The position numbers and the translations under genes were made by a program. Of a stretch of 64,000 nucleotides of DNA, positions 8,375 to 62,064 are shown in pieces. Below the pieces are notes generated by a model, which saw only the letters and a list, made by a program, of their open reading frames with translations, ran no database searches and was not told where the DNA came from. The DNA comes from a virus: positions 13,057 through 77,056 of the IMG/VR virus record IMGVR_UViG_3300050343_000268; one strand, given 5' to 3'. Each line of letters opens with the position of its first letter. The first letter of the stretch is position 1.

Positions 8375-9316
8375 ATGTCAACAGCAAAGCAATCAGGAGA
8401 CTCAGTACGTTCATATTTAAGAGATATTGGACGCATACCGCTCTTAGAGCATGCAGAAGAAATCCTTCTTGGACGCAAGGTCCAACGACTAATGGAGATC
8501 AAAGATCTTGAAAAAGAAATGGAAGTACAAAGTCAAGCTGATTTGGCTGGGATTCTTGGTATCACTACTCTTGAACTAAAACGTCAATTGAGGGAGGGTA
8601 CTAAAGCGAAAGATAAGATGGTGACTGCAAACTTGCGTCTTGTTGTAAGTGTTGCCAAGAAGTATACTAAAAGGAATATGGAGCTTTTAGATATCATTCA
8701 AGAGGGAACAATTGGTTTAGTACGTGGTGTTGAAAAGTTTGACCCTAGCCGTGGCTATAAGTTTAGTACCTATGCTTATTGGTGGATCCGTCAAGGCATC
8801 ACGCGGGCCATTGCGGAGAAATCGCGGGCAATACGCTTACCAATTCACGTTACAGAAAACCTCAACAAGCTTAAGAAAGCTCAACGTGAGCTAAGCCAAA
8901 TCAACGGTGAAATGCCATCCGTGTTCCAACTTGCTGATTACATGGAAATCACAGTAGATGAAATAAAGGATCTGATGTATAAGTCACAACAGCCCACATC
9001 ACTAGAAATAAAGATTGGTGAAAATCGTGATACAGCTTTAATCGATTTACTAGAAGACGAATCTCAACTACCAGACACTCTGCTAAATCGTCAATCAATA
9101 AAAGATAATATAAATGATGTGCTTTCTGAGCTGCCGGAGATGCAAGCAGCCGTGATCAAAATGAGATACGGAATTGGAACAGACATATTAGAACCCATGT
9201 CTATGACAGCAATTGGTCAAGTATTGAATATGAGCAGAGACAGGGTTAGGACAATCGAAAATAAAGCCTTGAAAACAATCCGTGAGTGCTCAAACGGACT
9301 TACTGACCATCTTTAA
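8375..9316 (+). CDS. RpoD/SigA-family (cyanobacterial group 2-like) RNA polymerase sigma factor
   Basis: DSVRSYLRDIGRIPLL (region 1.2), ANLRLVVSVAKKY, DIIQEGTIGL, KFSTYAYWWIRQGITRAI, SRDRVRTIE (4.2); no region 1.1. Confidence 0.95.
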   Translation: MSTAKQSGDSVRSYLRDIGRIPLLEHAEEILLGRKVQRLMEIKDLEKEMEVQSQADLAGILGITTLELKRQLREGTKAKDKMVTANLRLVVSVAKKYTKRNMELLDIIQEGTIGLVRGVEKFDPSRGYKFSTYAYWWIRQGITRAIAEKSRAIRLPIHVTENLNKLKKAQRELSQINGEMPSVFQLADYMEITVDEIKDLMYKSQQPTSLEIKIGENRDTALIDLLEDESQLPDTLLNRQSIKDNINDVLSELPEMQAAVIKMRYGIGTDILEPMSMTAIGQVLNMSRDRVRTIENKALKTIRECSNGLTDHL

Positions 9317-27497: not shown

Positions 27498-27686
27498 ATG
27501 GCTTGTAAAAAATCTGAATTTGTTACTGCTGTCAACAGCTATGCCGCTGCTCGTACAACAGGTGATGTTAATTTACAACGGCTTTCGGGAGCATTGCTAG
27601 AGCAGCTCCTCAATACCCTTGAATTTGCAGAAGAAGTAGTCGAAGGTGAAACAGAAGTGAGTGAATCGGAAGTTGTTCCTGACTAA
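27498..27686 (+). CDS. Hypothetical protein
   Basis: 62 aa with TATACT box at 27470. Confidence 0.55.
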   Translation: MACKKSEFVTAVNSYAAARTTGDVNLQRLSGALLEQLLNTLEFAEEVVEGETEVSESEVVPD

Positions 27687-28143
27687 CTAGTTGCTAATTT
27701 AACTTCAGCATCTCGCCTTTTAACAAGGCCCAACAATGGGCCGGTATTCCCATTAACCCATTTTGGGAATTCTTCCTGAAAACACAATGCTTTCTTCTCG
27801 CCGTTATTGATACGACGAGTAAAAGTACTGTTTTCTAGTGCATTACTGCCAACGTTAAATGCAAAACTTACAATTGCATCAAATTCATGTTGAGTTAGAA
27901 CAGGTAAAATGATCTTGACGACCTGCTCTTCAAACCACATGAGGTCCTTGCGTAATAACTCTTCTGCATCATCTTCAGTAATTACCTGACCATCAAATAC
28001 CTGCTGAGTGTGGCCATATCCAATCGTGAGTACTGAACTGGCGCAATAGTACGCTTTAAGCTCTAAGCCCTCAAAAGACTTGATAAGGTCAACACCAGCT
28101 TGTGATGTGCGGGTAGGCTCAACCGAATGAGCTCCCGCCTTTA
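27683..28143 (-). CDS. GH24 phage lysozyme domain lacking its own start codon (-1 frame of the upstream peptidase)
   Basis: TSQAGVDLIKSFEGLELKAYYCASSVLTIGYGHT..FDAIVSFAFNVG..GLVKRRDAE; first in-frame ATG (27940) is downstream of the catalytic motif. Confidence 0.9.
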
Positions 28144-28150
28144 CTTTTTT
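28109..28150 (-). promoter_or_regulatory. Candidate -1 programmed frameshift signal
   Basis: A_AAA_AAG (28150-28144) before TAA, 5-nt spacer, hairpin GCGGG-A-GCTCA-TTCGGT-TGAGC-CTA-CCCGC. Confidence 0.7.
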
Positions 28151-28851
28151 AGATTTGGATCACTAACATCCATATACCATCCACTACCTTCACCTTCAAC
28201 AATCCAACGTGGGTTAAAGTTTTTGTAGCTGTATTTTATCCCTGCACCATCAAGGTTATTTGTATAGCCACCACTGCGAAGTGATGCTTCTCCATTTGGA
28301 TCATTGACCACCCACACTTCGTTGTCGTCGTCATAGCCAATAATTACTGAGTAATGACCAGACCCTGAAGGTGAGCTAACAGGCCCCTCAAATAACCAAC
28401 CTACTGCTACTGGTTTTCCAGCATCAATAGCGTCTTTCAAGGCTCGTGTCGTACCGTCAAACTTAAACTCTGCATCAAGATTAAGAGACTTCAGAGTGTT
28501 AACTTGTGATTGCGCATTCGTTGTATCTCCATATTGCTTACGGATCGCGTTGTAATCGTCATCATTATCTATCTTTCCGTAGTACATTGCAACCATTGCC
28601 ATGCTACTTGAAAAGCATTCTCTAAATCCCGATCCCGATGAATTATCATTTTGACTTTGAAATGGCACACTTAATATGGTGCTGCTTGTAACCCCAGGCT
28701 TGTCACGGTAGGTCTTAACCCAAGCGTGTTGATCATCTTTAAGCACATCTCGCATCTGCTCGTACAAAACTTGCACACCAGCCTTTTGCTGAGGTTCTGA
28801 TTTGTAATACTTGAAAAAGTTTTCAAACTCTTTGAATGATAGATTAGCCAT
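28141..28851 (-). CDS. C39-like cysteine peptidase (lysin)
   Basis: LSVPFQSQ, ECFSSSMAM (Cys), GHYSVIIGYD (His), VNDP (Asp). Confidence 0.85.
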   Translation of the reverse strand: MANLSFKEFENFFKYYKSEPQQKAGVQVLYEQMRDVLKDDQHAWVKTYRDKPGVTSSTILSVPFQSQNDNSSGSGFRECFSSSMAMVAMYYGKIDNDDDYNAIRKQYGDTTNAQSQVNTLKSLNLDAEFKFDGTTRALKDAIDAGKPVAVGWLFEGPVSSPSGSGHYSVIIGYDDDNEVWVVNDPNGEASLRSGGYTNNLDGAGIKYSYKNFNPRWIVEGEGSGWYMDVSDPNLKK

Positions 28852-31470: not shown

Positions 31471-31914
31471 ATGTCAAATTTTTCTAGCTGGTTTTCTCGT
31501 TGTGCAGGTGACTGGAAATCTTATAGGCGATACCTAACATTACCATCGTACAAAGATGATTCATACAACACTGAGTTTACTATTAAAGTCGAAGACGACA
31601 AAGTAAATATCAGTTGGAATGGTGAAGTGAGTTCAGGTAATATGAACCTGACAATTGATGGGGATCTATTGCATCGTGATATTGGTTACTTTACTGATGA
31701 CCCTAACGACAGCAAACTGACGTTGCTTGATGAAGACACTGTCGTTTTACACAGCGCATATGACGGTATGGAATTCCGTGAAGAGATTCGCCTGCTTGAT
31801 GATGACAAGCATCGTCTTCGACAGACAGTTGGATATCGCAAAGGGAAGCCTTTTTTAGTAGGCCAGTACTGGGAGGAACGTCAAACACCTGTGGAAAAAA
31901 TTGGCTTTGAATGA
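31471..31914 (+). CDS. S/U/V-type (CpcS/CpeS/CpcV-like) phycobiliprotein lyase
   Basis: WFSRCAGDWKSYRRY, LHRDIGYF, FREEIRLL..RLRQT..LVGQYWEER. Confidence 0.75.
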   Translation: MSNFSSWFSRCAGDWKSYRRYLTLPSYKDDSYNTEFTIKVEDDKVNISWNGEVSSGNMNLTIDGDLLHRDIGYFTDDPNDSKLTLLDEDTVVLHSAYDGMEFREEIRLLDDDKHRLRQTVGYRKGKPFLVGQYWEERQTPVEKIGFE

Positions 31915-32080: not shown

Positions 32081-32887
32081 ATGAAAGTCTCTCAATTGCT
32101 CTTAAGAGTTCGCGATGAACAAGACATTCGCGATTCAACATTTAAATGCTGGCTTAAAGCAGCTAAGCCTATAGCTGATGTTGAGGTCAACGACATCGAC
32201 AGGGCTACAGTTACTCGTTATTGGCAGTCTCAGCTCAAGCCAATCGGTCCCCTCTCTCCTGAGACACTGCGCCGCCGCCTAAGCCTGCTGACAGGCATCT
32301 GGAATATGGGAATAGAAGATGAATTTATTGATGTGCCTAACTACTGGAGTAAGGCAAGCAAGAAGATAAAACTAAAAACTGATTACAACCGCTTAGGTAA
32401 AGAGTATCTAGTCAGACCCTTTAGTTTCTACGGGAGGTATCAGGCAGATCCCATCTTCCTAGCCATCTGGTTTCATGGCTTCCGCATCGGTGAAATTGCA
32501 GGTCTGTTGCCAAACGAAATACGGTTCGACAATCAGATCCCATACTTCAGAATTAGAGATAATAGCCTTAGGAATATCAAGCCCGGTGCTCAGAGAGACC
32601 TGCCTATTCATCCTGAGTTCTATCCACATGTCAATCGTCTTAGAACTGACTACAGCCAAAACCCAGGCAAGAACTGGAGTCAGATGTTTAGCGAGCGATT
32701 GGAGCTACCAAAGGGTGAAGCAGCACACTCACTGCGTCACAACTTCATTACTCGCTGTAGGTCAGCAGAGCTGCAGGACTCGATGATCTCTAAGATCGTA
32801 GGCCACAAAATAAATGGAATGACAGCACGATACGGAACTTGGACTTTGGAGGATAAGTTAAAAGCAATTCGTCAAGTAAGGCAGTAG
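32081..32887 (+). CDS. int: Tyrosine recombinase/integrase
   Basis: HGFRIGEIAGL (R), IKPG (K), HSLRH, IVGH, TARY (Y). Confidence 0.92.
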   Translation: MKVSQLLLRVRDEQDIRDSTFKCWLKAAKPIADVEVNDIDRATVTRYWQSQLKPIGPLSPETLRRRLSLLTGIWNMGIEDEFIDVPNYWSKASKKIKLKTDYNRLGKEYLVRPFSFYGRYQADPIFLAIWFHGFRIGEIAGLLPNEIRFDNQIPYFRIRDNSLRNIKPGAQRDLPIHPEFYPHVNRLRTDYSQNPGKNWSQMFSERLELPKGEAAHSLRHNFITRCRSAELQDSMISKIVGHKINGMTARYGTWTLEDKLKAIRQVRQ

Positions 32888-32902
32888 TTCGATACTTAGT
32901 TG

Positions 32903-33010
32903 CTACGCTAACCACACTACTCTCTATAAACTGCATAAATAAATCCCTATAGGGAGGGGATTACGGAATAGGTTTATAGGATTAACCGTAGTTTAGTGTG
33001 GTTTGCGTGG
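32903..33010. repeat. ~107-bp palindromic element, copy A
   Basis: CTACGCTAACCACACTA ... TCCCTATAGGGA ... TAGTGTGGTTTGCGTGG; 22 bp (32914-32935) are the exact reverse complement of 60403-60424. Confidence 0.85.
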
Positions 33011-33041
33011 TATATAGAATAGAAGTAGTTGAAAACATATT

Positions 33042-33185
33042 ATGGCTATTCTTGAATCAGCAGTATTTTGGATCATCTTGGCGGCAGCTAGTGAAATCAT
33101 TGCTCTAAGTCCCCTGAAAGACAATTCAATCATTCAGCTTGTATTTCATACATTGAAATCACTTAAGCCCGGAAAAAAGATCTAA
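33042..33185 (+). CDS. Small membrane protein (holin-like, 47 aa); candidate -1 frameshift extension to 33430
   Basis: MAILESAVFWIILAAASEIIALSPLKDNSIIQLVFHTLKSLKPGKKI; ends GGA AAA AAG ATC TAA. Confidence 0.65.
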   Translation: MAILESAVFWIILAAASEIIALSPLKDNSIIQLVFHTLKSLKPGKKI

Positions 33186-33215
33186 ACATCCCTGACGATG
33201 GTCAGTGGATATTTA
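33173..33215 (+). promoter_or_regulatory. Candidate -1 programmed frameshift signal
   Basis: A_AAA_AAG at 33173-33179, then hairpin TAAA-C-ATCC-CTGAC-GATG-GTCAG-T-GGAT-A-TTTA. Confidence 0.7.
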
Positions 33216-33484
33216 CGTTTGACACTCTAGGTAATGCTGAACGCTTAAAGCGTCTAATACAAGCACGTAAGTTTTATGCAACGCTTCCTCACAAGCTAGA
33301 TGCTGCTGAGGAAAAATGGCTTGCGTCTCAACCAACAGACAAAACAGTAGAGTTTACAGAAATTACTGATGGAGAAACACCTTTAGGTGGAGAAATGCGT
33401 CTGTCATTAAAGACTAAAAACAAGGATTAGAAATAATGAATCAATGTGTAGTTAGACTTATTTTAGGTTGCTAACAACAACTAC

Positions 33485-33880
33485 ATGGGATACGCAGAAG
33501 ATTGGGGAGAACTTATGTTCAATCTCCAGTGCCTTTCAAAAGGCTCCGCCAAGCGACAGTTTAGAGAAGACATTCGTTACAGTTTTGGAGGACTATGTGC
33601 TTATTGCCGAATAAGAAGAGCTGACACTCTTGATCACTTGAAACCACGCTGCAAAGGTGGAAGTAATTTAAGGTCAAATTTAGTTCCTTGTTGCAGAGAA
33701 TGCAATCACTCCAAAGGAAGTGAATTATGGCTACCCTGGTATCAACGACAGCTTTTTTATAATGCTGTTGCACAAGAGCTTATTGAAGAATGGATTGCTA
33801 ACAAGCGTATTGACTTAGATGATTATGACGAACGAATTGACAATCGAACAGAGGTTTGCCTTACAGCGAGCACGATATGA
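33485..33880 (+). CDS. HNH endonuclease (Zn-binding type)
   Basis: CAYC..TLDHLKPRCKGG..NLVPCCRECNHSKG. Confidence 0.9.
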   Translation: MGYAEDWGELMFNLQCLSKGSAKRQFREDIRYSFGGLCAYCRIRRADTLDHLKPRCKGGSNLRSNLVPCCRECNHSKGSELWLPWYQRQLFYNAVAQELIEEWIANKRIDLDDYDERIDNRTEVCLTASTI

Positions 33881-34151
33881 AGTGGCTCGAATGAGTAGAG
33901 GTGCACTAGAGAAAACCGCTGTACGGTTGCTCAAGTCACGCATGGAACAGAAGAATGGAGTTCAAGAGTTGCTAATGGGCAATGGAATCCTATTTAAGGT
34001 GCAAGAGCTTCAACAAGGTATGCCTGAAATTATTTCTGAAGATACTTTCATCGAGCTATTAAAAATGCAAGATGATATATTACCTGCTGACATCATGGAT
34101 GAGGGTTGGGAGATTGATGATATTGATGATGACGGTCTCACTATGATGTGA
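33825..34151 (+). CDS. nblA: NblA-like phycobilisome degradation protein with acidic C-terminal extension
   Basis: ELTIEQRFALQRARYEVARMSRGALEKTAVRLLKSRMEQKN matches the NblA pattern L(S/T)xEQxF..MSRE. Confidence 0.7.
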   Translation: MTNELTIEQRFALQRARYEVARMSRGALEKTAVRLLKSRMEQKNGVQELLMGNGILFKVQELQQGMPEIISEDTFIELLKMQDDILPADIMDEGWEIDDIDDDGLTMM

Positions 34152-34185: not shown

Positions 34186-34413
34186 ATGGAATACATAATC
34201 ATTGGGCCTATCTTGGCACTTCTTGTGAGCATGAAGTTTACAGATTATAAATCCAAAGAAGCGGAAGCTAGACTCACCACTTTGGAAAATAAAATTGAAA
34301 TTGTAACAAGTGTCTTAGAGCAGTCTGAAGCTGATGCACCTAAGAAAACCATGATGATTGTCGCTCCTGTCGCTAAGGCAGTAAAAGACCTTCAGTCAGC
34401 TATTGGTGTTTGA
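34186..34413 (+). CDS. Small membrane-anchored coiled-coil protein
   Basis: N-terminal hydrophobic helix YIIIGPILALLVSM. Confidence 0.6.
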   Translation: MEYIIIGPILALLVSMKFTDYKSKEAEARLTTLENKIEIVTSVLEQSEADAPKKTMMIVAPVAKAVKDLQSAIGV

Positions 34414-34586
34414 TGCACTTAACTCAAATCTTTAAGCATTACAGAGAGCCTCATCAGATAGCTGCAATCAATATGCTTGAGGAAGCTTTACCTGTTGAAT
34501 TGTTAGAAAGACATGCAGACTGGATAACCTGCTTCTTTGCAGAACCTGAGCCAAAAGAACCACTTATAATAGTAGAAAAGCTGTGA
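34413..34586 (+). CDS. Stand-alone homologue of the lysin N-terminal domain (57 aa)
   Basis: MHLTQIFKHYREPHQIAAINMLEEAL..DWITCF aligns with FENFFKYYKSEPQQKAGVQVLYEQM..AWVKTY. Confidence 0.55.
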   Translation: MHLTQIFKHYREPHQIAAINMLEEALPVELLERHADWITCFFAEPEPKEPLIIVEKL

Positions 34587-34593
34587 AATCATA

Positions 34594-34902
34594 GTGTCTG
34601 CTTTTAGGAATGCACCTATCGACCAACGTCGATTAAATATGAGAGACAGAAGTGACCTGCGTTCTGGTGGCGGCAAAGCTAATGAGGAAAAAGCGCAAAG
34701 TTATTTACGTGCTTACAAAGGTCAAATGGACTACGAAGGTAAACGTCAAGAACGTACAACAACGCAGACACCAGGAACTGGCGGTATGACGCAGGGATTG
34801 AGTATTCAGCAGGACAGACAGCGACAGATCGGTGACGAGAAACGAAGGGCTAAAGAATTACGGCCAGAGATGGAAGATAACATCTACGACATTTACGATT
34901 AA
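34594..34902 (+). CDS. Hypothetical protein
   Basis: 102 aa, TATAAT at 34565. Confidence 0.55.
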   Translation: MSAFRNAPIDQRRLNMRDRSDLRSGGGKANEEKAQSYLRAYKGQMDYEGKRQERTTTQTPGTGGMTQGLSIQQDRQRQIGDEKRRAKELRPEMEDNIYDIYD

Positions 34903-35699
34903 TAACCAATAAGCTTTTTATAGCTGGCAGGTGATTGCCATCCAAAATCATCACCGGCCCAATAACGGCCATCTCTGCCACGTTCACCAACGATGTACAG
35001 ACCTCCGTTATTTAACTCAGCTTTTTGAGACAGATCTTGCAACCGTTGATCTCTTTGCCGGATCATTGAATCAACGTTTTGTGCTGCTTTAATACGCCGA
35101 TCGTTATGAGGAACGCTAGGCCGGAAGAAGTCTTTACGGAAGTGAGTGGCAGCTTGAGGCAAGCTCATGCCATCTGTTTCGCCACTTAATGCGCCAGTAA
35201 ACCCTGAGAGACTTGCCCCTGGAGCAGGGTCATATTTACCTGCATATTCAGCTGCTGCATAAGGCATTTGAAACCCTGCCATGTCGTTAGGATCACCGCC
35301 ATCTTTAATGTATTCAAGACGGGCTTGATCGTAAGGATCACGTCGAGCATGAGTGTACTGAGCTACGCCTCGACCTTCACCTGCATTTACTTCAACAACG
35401 TCAGTGTTACTCAGTGTTGGATCACCGGTTTCAACAATATAATTACCAGTCAATGCAGAGGCAGATGATGTGGACATTGGCATAATGGTCCCATCGGACA
35501 GCTCATTCATCTTGTATGTCGTAAATCCATCATGTAGTATTTCAACATCTGGTGGAATGTTAGGACGACTTACGTTACTTACAGGTACGGCTTTTTGAGC
35601 CATAGGTGTTGGTGGTTCAGGCAGGACTTGCCTCACAGCGTCACTGACTTTCCCATAAATGCCTCCGGCAAACCGGTTAAGACTGCCAAGTATATCCAT
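34899..35699 (-). CDS. Phage tail lysozyme-like protein
   Basis: GNYIVETG, GRGVAQYT..RR, AATHFRKDFFRP..RRIKAA. Confidence 0.6.
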   Translation of the reverse strand: MDILGSLNRFAGGIYGKVSDAVRQVLPEPPTPMAQKAVPVSNVSRPNIPPDVEILHDGFTTYKMNELSDGTIMPMSTSSASALTGNYIVETGDPTLSNTDVVEVNAGEGRGVAQYTHARRDPYDQARLEYIKDGGDPNDMAGFQMPYAAAEYAGKYDPAPGASLSGFTGALSGETDGMSLPQAATHFRKDFFRPSVPHNDRRIKAAQNVDSMIRQRDQRLQDLSQKAELNNGGLYIVGERGRDGRYWAGDDFGWQSPASYKKLIGY

Positions 35700-61918: not shown

Positions 61919-61956
61919 TGCAACAAATATAAGTAAGTTACTACTATTCTAATCAA

Positions 61957-62028
61957 CGAGACATACCAGATTCGAACTGGTAATAACTGCGAGACAGGCA
62001 GTCGTGATAACCGTTTCACTAATGTCCC
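61957..62028 (-). tRNA. tRNA-Asp(GTC), no encoded CCA
   Basis: Acceptor GGGACAT/ATGTCTC+G, anticodon arm ACTGC-CTGTCTC-GCAGT, T arm ACCAG-TTCGAAT-CTGGT. Confidence 0.88.
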
Positions 62029-62064
62029 ATAAGGAAAGGCTAGCTGTAAGCCAGCCCTTATGTG

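What the first reader, a model, noticed from the sequence alone, without database searches (positions are those of the whole stretch)
33042..33430. Second A_AAA_AAG plus hairpin frameshift extends a holin-like membrane peptide
Seen: the 47-aa hydrophobic ORF ends GGA AAA AAG ATC TAA and a hairpin (ATCC-CTGAC/GTCAG-T-GGAT) follows. The -1 frame is open for 83 further codons (DLNIPDDGQWIFTFD..RKFYATLPHKLDAAEEKW..LGGEMRL) with no early start codon and fills an otherwise empty 245-nt gap. Two independent sites of the same design make homopolymer error less likely. Inference: short and long (~129 aa) isoforms act like a holin/antiholin or membrane-anchor pair, so lysis would be dosed by frameshifting at two loci.
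Basis: partly seen in the sequence, partly recalled or inferred. Interest (0 to 1): 0.75.

Follow-up and report, generated by a model that had tools for sequence, protein, structure and literature searches.

The report
Conserved frameshift in cyanophage lysis-membrane gene
A tiny membrane-protein gene of this marine cyanophage, and of more than 100 related phages, is built so that some ribosomes should slip back one base and make a longer second protein, and its usual place beside the cell-wall-digesting enzyme suggests that the pair helps control host lysis.

Summary
The 47-aa hydrophobic ORF (33042-33185) ends GGA AAA AAG ATC TAA. The -1 frame then stays open for 83 codons to 33430 with no start codon, and a hairpin follows (-13.3 kcal/mol).

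Comparison makes a programmed -1 ribosomal frameshift by far the best reading. Of 113 distinct related loci, 107 keep A_AAA_AAG in phase. These include the cultured Synechococcus phages S-CBS1 and KBS-S-2A. Two loci use G_GGA_AAG instead and one uses A_AAA_AAA. Three have lost both heptamer and extension. None in IMG/VR is fused in frame.

Synonymous-site identity is 1.00 at the two Lys codons, against about 0.45 elsewhere. Both parts are under purifying selection. Contigs from four independent studies show no indel at the A-run.

The hairpin is not conserved across the family.

The function is inferred from gene order. In siphoviruses the gene sits directly upstream of the endolysin. In a T7-like contig it sits where T7 has its holin. 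In this window it closes the tail-fibre arm, among lysis-type genes. "Holin-like" is therefore reasonable, but a holin/antiholin pair is untested.

The papers I searched do not describe this site. First-stage notes of this scan flag a similar site in another genome.

The parts
33042..33185 (+). 0-frame ORF, 47 aa: N-terminal transmembrane helix (about residues 1-24, invariant W10, AA, S17, E18), amphipathic helix (28-41), basic tail KPGKK-I
   Evidence: Conserved in 49 aligned relatives. Matches phrog_22542, unknown function, E 2.6e-23. dN/dS about 0.17.
33173..33179 (+). Slippery heptamer A_AAA_AAG in X_XXY_YYZ phase
   Evidence: In phase in 107 of 113 distinct loci, and replaced by G_GGA_AAG or A_AAA_AAA in 3. 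Synonymous identity is 1.00 at both Lys codons.
33183..33185 (+). 0-frame stop TAA, one codon after the heptamer; it overlaps the conserved Leu codon of the -1 frame
   Evidence: The stop sits exactly one codon after the heptamer in 108 of the 110 loci that have a heptamer, and directly after it in the other 2.
33179..33430 (+). -1 frame extension, 83 codons plus stop; no start codon of its own. Core motifs IPxDGxW and KFYATLPxKLD, then a GETPLGGEM tail. The predicted transframe product is 129 aa.
   Evidence: dN/dS about 0.2-0.3. AF2 gives a long helix at 19-50, pLDDT 69.
33188..33210 (+). Hairpin core (9 pairs with one bulge, GAUG loop), 8 nt after the heptamer; the predicted fold extends it to 33183-33215
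   Evidence: -13.3 kcal/mol, z -2.6. Kept in the closest relatives only. Family-wide mean z is -0.3 and covariation is weak.
34186..34413 (+). Context: 75-aa protein with an N-terminal hydrophobic segment and a coiled-coil-like rest. It is the counterpart of the small protein just upstream of the frameshift gene in siphovirus and podovirus relatives.
34410..34586 (+). Context: 58-aa ORF homologous to the N-terminal domain (about 55 aa) of the endolysins that follow the frameshift gene in siphovirus relatives
   Evidence: tblastn E down to 3e-7 against those endolysin N-termini, and alignment A5.
27686..28851 (-). Context: the window's other A_AAA_AAG site (28144-28150, minus strand). A C39-like peptidase ORF ends AAG TAA, and the -1 frame continues into a GH24 lysozyme with no start codon.
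   Evidence: Heptamer and phase are kept in 4 distinct close relatives.

Best explanation
The locus is one gene read in two ways. Most ribosomes translate the 47-aa membrane peptide and stop at the TAA at 33183. A fraction should slip back one base on A_AAA_AAG, with the Lys tRNAs re-pairing from AAA-AAG to AAA-AAA. Those ribosomes continue in the -1 frame and make a 129-aa protein: the same membrane anchor with a helical C-terminal domain added after Lys-Lys.

By the positive-inside rule (acidic N-terminus, KPGKK tail), that added domain should face the cytoplasm.

The gene belongs to a lysis-type module of marine cyanophages. The module holds a small TM/coiled-coil protein, this gene, and an endolysin with a conserved N-terminal domain. 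The short form is the constant, holin-like core. The long form is an accessory isoform made at a fixed ratio.

My odds:
- Ribosomal -1 frameshifting is used: about 0.85-0.9.
- The gene acts in lysis: about 0.6.
- The two isoforms form a holin/antiholin-type pair: about 0.3.

The confidence given for this explanation (0.6) is for frameshifting and a lysis-module role together.

Shown here: sequence design, conservation and gene order. Inferred: that slippage occurs, its efficiency, the topology, and the function.
For: Design: heptamer phase, nearby -1-frame stop upstream, no start codon.

Conservation:
- All 62 loci found through the extension keep the heptamer in phase, with the 0-frame stop one codon later.
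- Of 113 distinct loci, 107 have A_AAA_AAG, 2 have G_GGA_AAG, 1 has A_AAA_AAA, 3 have lost both heptamer and extension, and none is fused.
- The codon before AAA always ends in A, although it encodes 9 different amino acids.
- Synonymous identity is 1.00 at the two Lys codons, against 0.49-0.62 at other Lys columns and a baseline of about 0.45.
- dN/dS is about 0.17 for the short ORF and about 0.3 for the extension.
- The same design occurs in cultured S-CBS1 (gp22/gp23) and KBS-S-2A (CPKG_00007 plus an unannotated gap).

Not an assembly error: contigs of 4 studies show no indel.

The rare in-frame proteins in ENA read exactly as the predicted junction...KPGKK-ELNIP....

Lysis context:
- The gene lies directly upstream of, and often overlaps, endolysins of three catalytic types that share one N-terminal domain.
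- In L044 it lies between a tail fibre and a T7-type small terminase. T7 has holin gp17.5 at that position; this is from my knowledge.
- In the window it sits at the end of the tail-fibre arm, close to a TM/coiled-coil gene, an endolysin-N-domain homologue and two lysozyme-type genes.
- These endolysins show no hydrophobic signal segment, so they would need a holin.
Against: - Nothing here shows a transframe protein or measures slippage.
- No conserved stimulatory element was found. The hairpin is lineage-specific and no upstream SD-like motif is evident (contexts).
- No match to any holin family in Pfam, PHROGs or the PDB.
- At 47 aa the short form is smaller than the characterised holins I know of.
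- The co-occurring TM/coiled-coil protein is an equally good holin candidate.
- In this window the gene is next to an integrase and an HNH gene, not an endolysin.
- A few in-frame fused proteins exist. Seven are singletons, and P0163 appears. A fused gene is therefore tolerated, or these are sequencing errors.
Confidence: 0.6

Rival explanations
1. The frameshift is real, but the gene is not a lysis gene. The membrane anchor with its variable C-terminal domain would serve another late or membrane function, such as superinfection exclusion, a virion-assembly or membrane tether, or host takeover.
For: - No holin family matches.
- In the window and its group the gene sits beside integrase, HNH and NblA genes.
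- The extension's tail is modular and varies between clades.
Against: The gene is repeatedly adjacent to endolysins in many contigs and in two cultured phages. In L044 it lies where T7 has its holin. It co-occurs with the endolysin N-domain homologue in the window's own group.
Confidence: 0.25
2. These are two separate genes. The -1 ORF would be translated on its own from a non-canonical start, or by termination-reinitiation at the overlapping stop. The A-run would be conserved only because both frames encode Lys-Lys.
For: - The 0-frame stop always overlaps the second codon after the Lys-Lys of the -1 frame (YTR-R). In some lineages that codon is TTG or CTG.
- S-CBS1 gp23 is annotated as a separate gene.
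Against: - In many lineages, this window included, that codon is CTA or TTA, and no ATG, GTG or TTG lies upstream of the conserved core.
- Lys-Lys coding does not explain the fixed AAA-AAG choice, nor the A-ending preceding codon across 9 amino acids, nor the swap to two other canonical heptamers.
- In-frame singletons show a continuous junction.
Confidence: 0.06
3. Slippage happens in the RNA polymerase, not the ribosome. A fraction of mRNAs would carry an extra A in the A-run, putting the two parts in frame.
For: - The site is a homopolymer of 6-8 A.
- Adding one A would give exactly the fused product.
Against: - L092 and L096 use G_GGA_AAG, which has only three A's.
- The final G and the codon phase are invariant, which polymerase slippage does not require.
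- From my knowledge, efficient transcriptional slippage needs runs of about 8-9.
- No RNA run was available to test this.
Confidence: 0.04
4. This is a homopolymer sequencing or assembly error, or a decaying gene. The true gene would be a plain in-frame protein of about 129 aa.
For: - Seven singleton in-frame proteins in ENA, and one cluster representative.
- Distant myovirus proteins (phrog_3316) carry a TM segment and the shared C-terminal motif in one frame.
Against: - 110 of 113 distinct loci from many samples and two cultured phages are split in the same way, and none is fused in IMG/VR.
- Four independent studies show no indel.
- Both frames are under purifying selection.
- Every in-frame form is a single-member cluster, against up to 37 members for split forms.
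Confidence: 0.02

Closest known systems
Programmed -1 frameshift sites of the dnaX / IS3-family (IS911) type in bacteria
   Same: The same A_AAA_AAG heptamer in X_XXY_YYZ phase. The 0-frame product ends just after the site. There are two products with a common N-terminus. In this window a 3' hairpin sits at a suitable spacing.
   Different: A different gene and setting. No conserved 3' structure and no 5' SD-like stimulator across the family. In dnaX the shifted product is the shorter one, whereas here it is the longer.
Phage tail assembly chaperone frameshift (lambda G/GT, G_GGA_AAG) and T7 capsid 10A/10B
   Same: A conserved phage -1 frameshift that sets a ratio between a short protein and a C-terminally extended one. 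Two relatives (L092, L096) use lambda's own heptamer G_GGA_AAG.
   Different: The gene here encodes a 47-aa membrane peptide in a lysis-type module, not a tail chaperone or a capsid protein.
Holin/antiholin pairs made from one gene (lambda S105/S107 dual-start motif)
   Same: A small membrane protein next to the endolysin, made in two isoforms at a ratio fixed by the translation machinery (inference).
   Different: The isoforms would differ at the C-terminus by about 80 residues, through frameshifting. In lambda they differ at the N-terminus by two residues, through alternative starts. There is no sequence relation to S or to any holin family, and antagonism is untested.
phrog_3316 proteins of T4-like cyanomyoviruses (for example the L013 127-aa protein; hits in ACG-2014f, S-SRM01, S-H34)
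   Same: An N-terminal TM segment plus the shared C-terminal motif LD.A..Y...LEGETPLGGEMR (BLASTP E 1e-7; phrog hit). They sit among lysozyme-type genes and CpeT.
   Different: They are encoded in a single frame with no heptamer. Detectable homology is limited to the C-terminal third, and the N-terminal TM part is not detectably related.

Membership tests
Programmed -1 ribosomal frameshift site (X_XXY_YYZ type) | Canonical slippery heptamer in the correct phase of the upstream frame | tested here: met
   GGA AAA AAG in the 0 frame. In phase in 110 of 113 distinct loci, using three canonical heptamers.
Programmed -1 ribosomal frameshift site (X_XXY_YYZ type) | Overlapping -1 ORF that codes for conserved protein and lacks its own start | tested here: met
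   83 codons with no start. Conserved with dN/dS about 0.3. Most relatives have no start upstream of the core.
Programmed -1 ribosomal frameshift site (X_XXY_YYZ type) | Heptamer conserved beyond what the protein sequence requires | tested here: met
   Synonymous identity is 1.00 at both Lys codons, against about 0.45 baseline. The preceding codon always ends in A across 9 amino acids.
Programmed -1 ribosomal frameshift site (X_XXY_YYZ type) | Stimulatory element (3' hairpin or pseudoknot, or 5' SD-like sequence) | tested here: inconclusive
   Hairpin in the window at -13.3 kcal/mol, z -2.6. Family mean z is -0.3. No synonymous constraint 3' of the site. Covariation is weak: 2 of 13 pairs change on both sides.
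Programmed -1 ribosomal frameshift site (X_XXY_YYZ type) | Transframe protein detected, or slippage measured | not testable with these tools
   No proteome or reporter data, and no RNA run listed.
Phage holins | Small membrane protein with at least one TM helix and a charged C-terminus | tested here: met
   Hydrophobic residues 1-24, amphipathic helix 28-41, KPGKK tail.
Phage holins | Gene adjacent to the endolysin in a lysis cassette | tested here: inconclusive
   Met in S-CBS1, KBS-S-2A and many contigs. Not met in this window, where lysozyme-type genes lie 1.5 and 4.2 kb away.
Phage holins | Sequence membership of a described holin family | tested here: not met
   No Pfam hit at E up to 0.1. 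PHROGs give only phrog_22542 and phrog_15106, both of unknown function. The Atlas neighbours are unnamed 48-51-aa clusters.
Phage holins | Timed membrane permeabilisation that releases endolysin | not testable with these tools
   Needs expression and lysis assays.
Spanins (Rz/Rz1-type overlapping lysis genes) | An embedded ORF with its own start, a signal sequence and a lipobox Cys (o-spanin) | tested here: not met
   The extension has no start codon, no hydrophobic leader and no Cys.

The most novel reading that the evidence does not exclude
Frameshifting at this site could be the lysis clock's ratio device. The short form would be the hole-former. The long form would be its inhibitor, or a cytoplasmic tether for the endolysin's conserved N-terminal domain. 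Lysis timing in a large group of marine cyanophages would then be set by slippage efficiency. Because that efficiency depends on Lys-tRNA decoding, timing could follow the host's translational or nutrient state. This would be a C-terminal, frameshift-based analogue of lambda's dual-start holin/antiholin. In this phage a second frameshift would also gate the lysozyme domain.
Probability: 0.25. Interest if true: 0.85.

Novelty: new variant of a known kind. Interest (0 to 1): 0.68.

Why it matters
Well-known conserved frameshifts in tailed phages are few: the tail chaperone, the T7-type capsid, and some others. This would add a widespread one in a different functional module.

- It corrects the annotation of cultured phages. 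The extension is unannotated in KBS-S-2A. In S-CBS1 it is called as a separate gene, gp23.
- It gives a concrete and testable candidate for the lysis genes of marine cyanophages. Only two cyanophage holin studies turned up in my searches, both on freshwater phages.
- If the isoform ratio controls lysis, it links burst timing of abundant ocean viruses to host translation.

Tried and rejected
- Complex prediction of the extension (A3) with the 58-aa endolysin-N-domain homologue (A5) returned 'no answer', score 0.00. It counts neither way.
The DNA behind the in-frame singleton proteins could not be inspected.
- No RNA holder was listed among the sequencing runs. Expression and transcript slippage could not be examined.
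- blastn of the region against the phage collection found nothing.
- A profile search of the extension against PDB sequences gave only chance-level hits, E at least 0.36.
- The AF2 model is of modest confidence (pLDDT 69) and mostly one long helix. I ran no fold search on it because the result would carry little meaning.
- The Protein Atlas gave only unnamed short clusters below 0.9.
- The promoter and terminator scan of 32700-33700 found none.
- A family-wide conserved 3' structure was sought by per-sequence folding, synonymous-site analysis and pair counting, and was not found.
- No upstream SD-like stimulator is evident in the contexts.
- Literature searches for a frameshift in a cyanophage holin or lysis gene, or in S-CBS1 or KBS-S-2A, found nothing relevant. 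Subscription journals are not covered.
- The host's Lys-tRNA set was not examined.

Full report
**What is in the sequence.** The window belongs to a 77,056-bp IMG/VR virus record that is rated 97% complete. At 33042-33185 a 47-aa ORF reads, at its end, CCC GGA AAA AAG ATC TAA. A_AAA_AAG therefore lies at 33173-33179 in the X_XXY_YYZ phase. The -1 frame is closed four codons before the heptamer. It is then open for 83 codons to the TAG at 33428-33430, with no ATG, GTG or TTG until near its end. An open stretch of this length has a chance probability of about 0.006 from the window's stop frequency. The heptamer by itself is unremarkable: 30 copies in the window against 21 expected. A slip would give M...KPGKK-DLNIPDDGQW..., 129 aa in all. 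Its core is 33188-33210, 8 nt after the heptamer, at -13.3 kcal/mol and z = -2.6.

**Not an assembly error.** Contigs from four runs of four different studies span the site. They carry only substitutions, one of them a synonymous C>T at 33170, and no insertion or deletion.

**Relatives found through the extension.** Searching viral contigs with the -1 product, and then with its alignment, gave 62 loci. All 62 have the small hydrophobic ORF, A_AAA_AAG in phase, a 0-frame stop exactly one codon later, and the extension continuing in the -1 frame. Most have no start codon upstream of the conserved core.

**Cultured phages.** Synechococcus phages S-CBS1 and KBS-S-2A have the same design. In S-CBS1 the small ORF is gp22, and the extension is annotated from an internal start as gp23. 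In KBS-S-2A the small ORF is CPKG_00007 and the extension lies in an unannotated gap.

**Relatives found through the short ORF.** It brought in further subfamilies with divergent extensions.

**Census of 113 distinct loci.**
- 107 have A_AAA_AAG in phase. The stop falls one codon later in 105 of them and immediately after in 2.
- 2 have G_GGA_AAG, the lambda G/GT heptamer (L092, L096).
- 1 has A_AAA_AAA (L105).
- 3 have neither heptamer nor extension (L107, L108, L119). In L119 the endolysin gene follows directly.
- None is fused in frame.

**Selection acts on nucleotides, not only on Lys-Lys.**
- Among sequence pairs with the same amino acid, codon identity is 1.00 at both Lys codons and 0.84 at the codon before them.
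- Other Lys columns score 0.49-0.62, and the gene-wide baseline is about 0.45.
- The signal falls back to baseline within two codons on either side.
- The codon before AAA encodes nine different amino acids but always ends in A (contexts).
- Both parts evolve as protein. dN/dS is about 0.17 for the short ORF and about 0.3 for the extension; against the closest relative the extension gives dN 0.105 and dS 0.577.

**What this says about the mechanism.** The swap between three canonical heptamers, the invariant final G and the invariant phase all point to ribosomal slippage. They argue against polymerase slippage and against independent initiation.

**The hairpin.** It is kept in the nearest relatives. 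Across 46 distinct sequences the 55 nt after the site fold no better than shuffles, with mean z -0.3. There is no synonymous constraint 3' of the site. In the closest subfamily, 70.8% of cells pair against 68.0% in shuffles, and only 2 of 13 pairs change on both sides. The outer stem comes from the conserved Ile-Pro and Trp codons. The hairpin may help in this lineage, but it is not a defining part of the signal. The feature that is strictly conserved is the 0-frame stop one codon downstream.

**In-frame forms.** A profile search of the large protein database returned 275 relatives. Most are the extension called from internal starts or misread upstream. Seven are in-frame fusions or fragments of them (P0011, P0013, P0019, P0025, P0027, P0036, P0037). 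Each is a single-member cluster, and each reads ...KPGKK-ELNIP... at the junction, exactly as predicted. A full-library profile search with the short ORF found one more fused representative, P0163. It also found some variants whose 0-frame runs on into non-conserved sequence. They may be homopolymer errors or rare natural variants. Either way they show that the predicted junction occurs in frame, and they do not outweigh the 110 split loci.

**The protein.** Residues 1-24 of the short form are hydrophobic and carry invariant W10, A14, A15, S17 and E18. Residues 28-41 form an amphipathic helix with a hydrophobic moment of about 0.5. The tail is basic. An acidic N-terminus and a basic C-terminus suggest an N-out, C-in topology, which would place the extension in the cytoplasm. 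That topology is inference. AF2 on 49 aligned extensions gives a long helix at 19-50 and a weak terminal beta-hairpin, with mean pLDDT 69. No Pfam, PDB or named PHROG family matches. The short ORF hits phrog_22542 (unknown function). The extension's tail hits phrog_3316 (unknown function). phrog_3316 proteins of T4-like cyanomyoviruses carry a TM segment and the shared LEGETPLGGEMR-type tail in a single frame. Detectable homology is limited to that tail.

**Gene order: siphovirus-type loci.** The order is tail fibre, then an 81-90-aa TM/coiled-coil protein (phrog_26178), then this gene, then the endolysin, which often overlaps the end of the extension. Those endolysins have three different catalytic make-ups: GH24 lysozyme, glucosaminidase plus C39-like peptidase, and one with no Pfam match. 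All share one N-terminal domain of about 55 aa, and none shows a hydrophobic signal segment.

**Gene order: T7-like contig L044.** Here the gene lies between a tail-fibre protein plus a 75-aa TM/coiled-coil protein and the T7-type small terminase. From my own knowledge, T7 encodes its holin gp17.5 at that position.

**Gene order: this window.** The + strand arm carries virion and tail-fibre genes up to about 26 kb, and the minus-strand arm beyond 34.9 kb carries replication genes. The frameshift gene sits near the end of the + arm, after an integrase. Downstream come an HNH gene, an NblA-like gene, a 75-aa protein with a hydrophobic N-terminus and a coiled-coil-like rest, and a 58-aa ORF homologous to the endolysin N-terminal domain. 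That ORF gives tblastn E down to 3e-7 against the siphovirus endolysins, and it is present in nearly all contigs of this group. A Phage_lysozyme2 gene lies convergent at 34899-35699.

**The window's other A_AAA_AAG site.** It lies on the minus strand at 28144-28150. It joins a Peptidase_C39_2 ORF to a Phage_lysozyme ORF that has no start codon. Four distinct close relatives keep the heptamer in phase. A myovirus contig encodes the same two domains as one 407-aa in-frame protein.

**Reading.** A conserved programmed -1 frameshift is well supported by sequence design and comparison, but it has not been shown directly. A role in lysis is the best-supported function, resting on repeated gene order and on the endolysins' apparent need for a holin. 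It remains an inference. The gene matches no holin family, 47 aa is very small for a holin, and the neighbouring TM/coiled-coil protein is a rival holin candidate. Three lineages keep only the short form, so the short form looks like the core and the long form like an accessory. That fits a regulator or tether, but does not prove one.

**Novelty.** Seven full-text searches found no description of a frameshift in a holin or lysis gene of cyanophages, nor any in S-CBS1 or KBS-S-2A. The library lacks most subscription journals. First-stage notes of this scan flag the same design in another genome, and a 46-aa membrane protein next to an endolysin in a third; both notes are unchecked. I class the finding as a new variant of a known kind: a familiar recoding mechanism in a new, widespread gene family and module.

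Noticed in passing
window 27686-28851 (minus strand): A second A_AAA_AAG site (28144-28150). A Peptidase_C39_2 ORF ends AAG TAA, and the -1 frame continues into a GH24 Phage_lysozyme with no start. Heptamer and phase are kept in 4 distinct close relatives (L165-L169). A myovirus contig (L013) has the two domains fused in frame as a 407-aa protein.
   Followed up: partly
window 34410-34586 (+): A 58-aa ORF homologous to the conserved N-terminal domain (about 55 aa) of siphovirus endolysins that have three different catalytic make-ups. Here it stands alone. It co-occurs with the frameshift gene in nearly all contigs of this group. The domain has no Pfam match.
   Followed up: partly
window 34186-34413 (+); L043 3553-3825; L044 881-1108; L023 2079-2324: A small protein of 75-90 aa with an N-terminal TM segment and a coiled coil (phrog_26178 or phrog_12220; weak hits to XhlA-type 'hemolysin' and 'lipoprotein' families). 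It accompanies the frameshift gene in siphovirus, podovirus and window-type genomes. It could be the holin or an i-spanin-like partner.
   Followed up: partly
L119 about 1480-1640; L107 about 640-790; L108 about 1500-1653: Three lineages keep the short membrane ORF but have lost both the heptamer and the extension. In L119 the endolysin gene starts at the short ORF's stop (AAATGA).
   Followed up: partly
window 33165-33212: In metagenome contigs of three studies, divergent relatives match the window at 90% or more only across this 48-nt island (end of the short ORF, heptamer, hairpin) and diverge on both sides.
   Followed up: no
window 31471-31914, 33485-33880, 33819-34151: A CpeS-like gene, an HNH endonuclease and an NblA-like phycobilisome-degradation gene surround the locus. 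The HNH and NblA genes sit between the frameshift gene and the TM/coiled-coil and 58-aa genes, as if inserted into a lysis module.
   Followed up: no
window 8375-9316 (+) and 61956-62029 (-): A phage-encoded RNA polymerase sigma factor (phrog_351, E 3e-80), and a single tRNA-Asp(GTC). No tRNA-Lys is encoded in the window.
   Followed up: no
L084 and L083 (genome contigs): Two contigs binned as 'Rhodobacteraceae bacterium' and 'bacterium TMED88' carry the same frameshift gene. They are probably cyanophage contigs mis-binned into MAGs.
   Followed up: no
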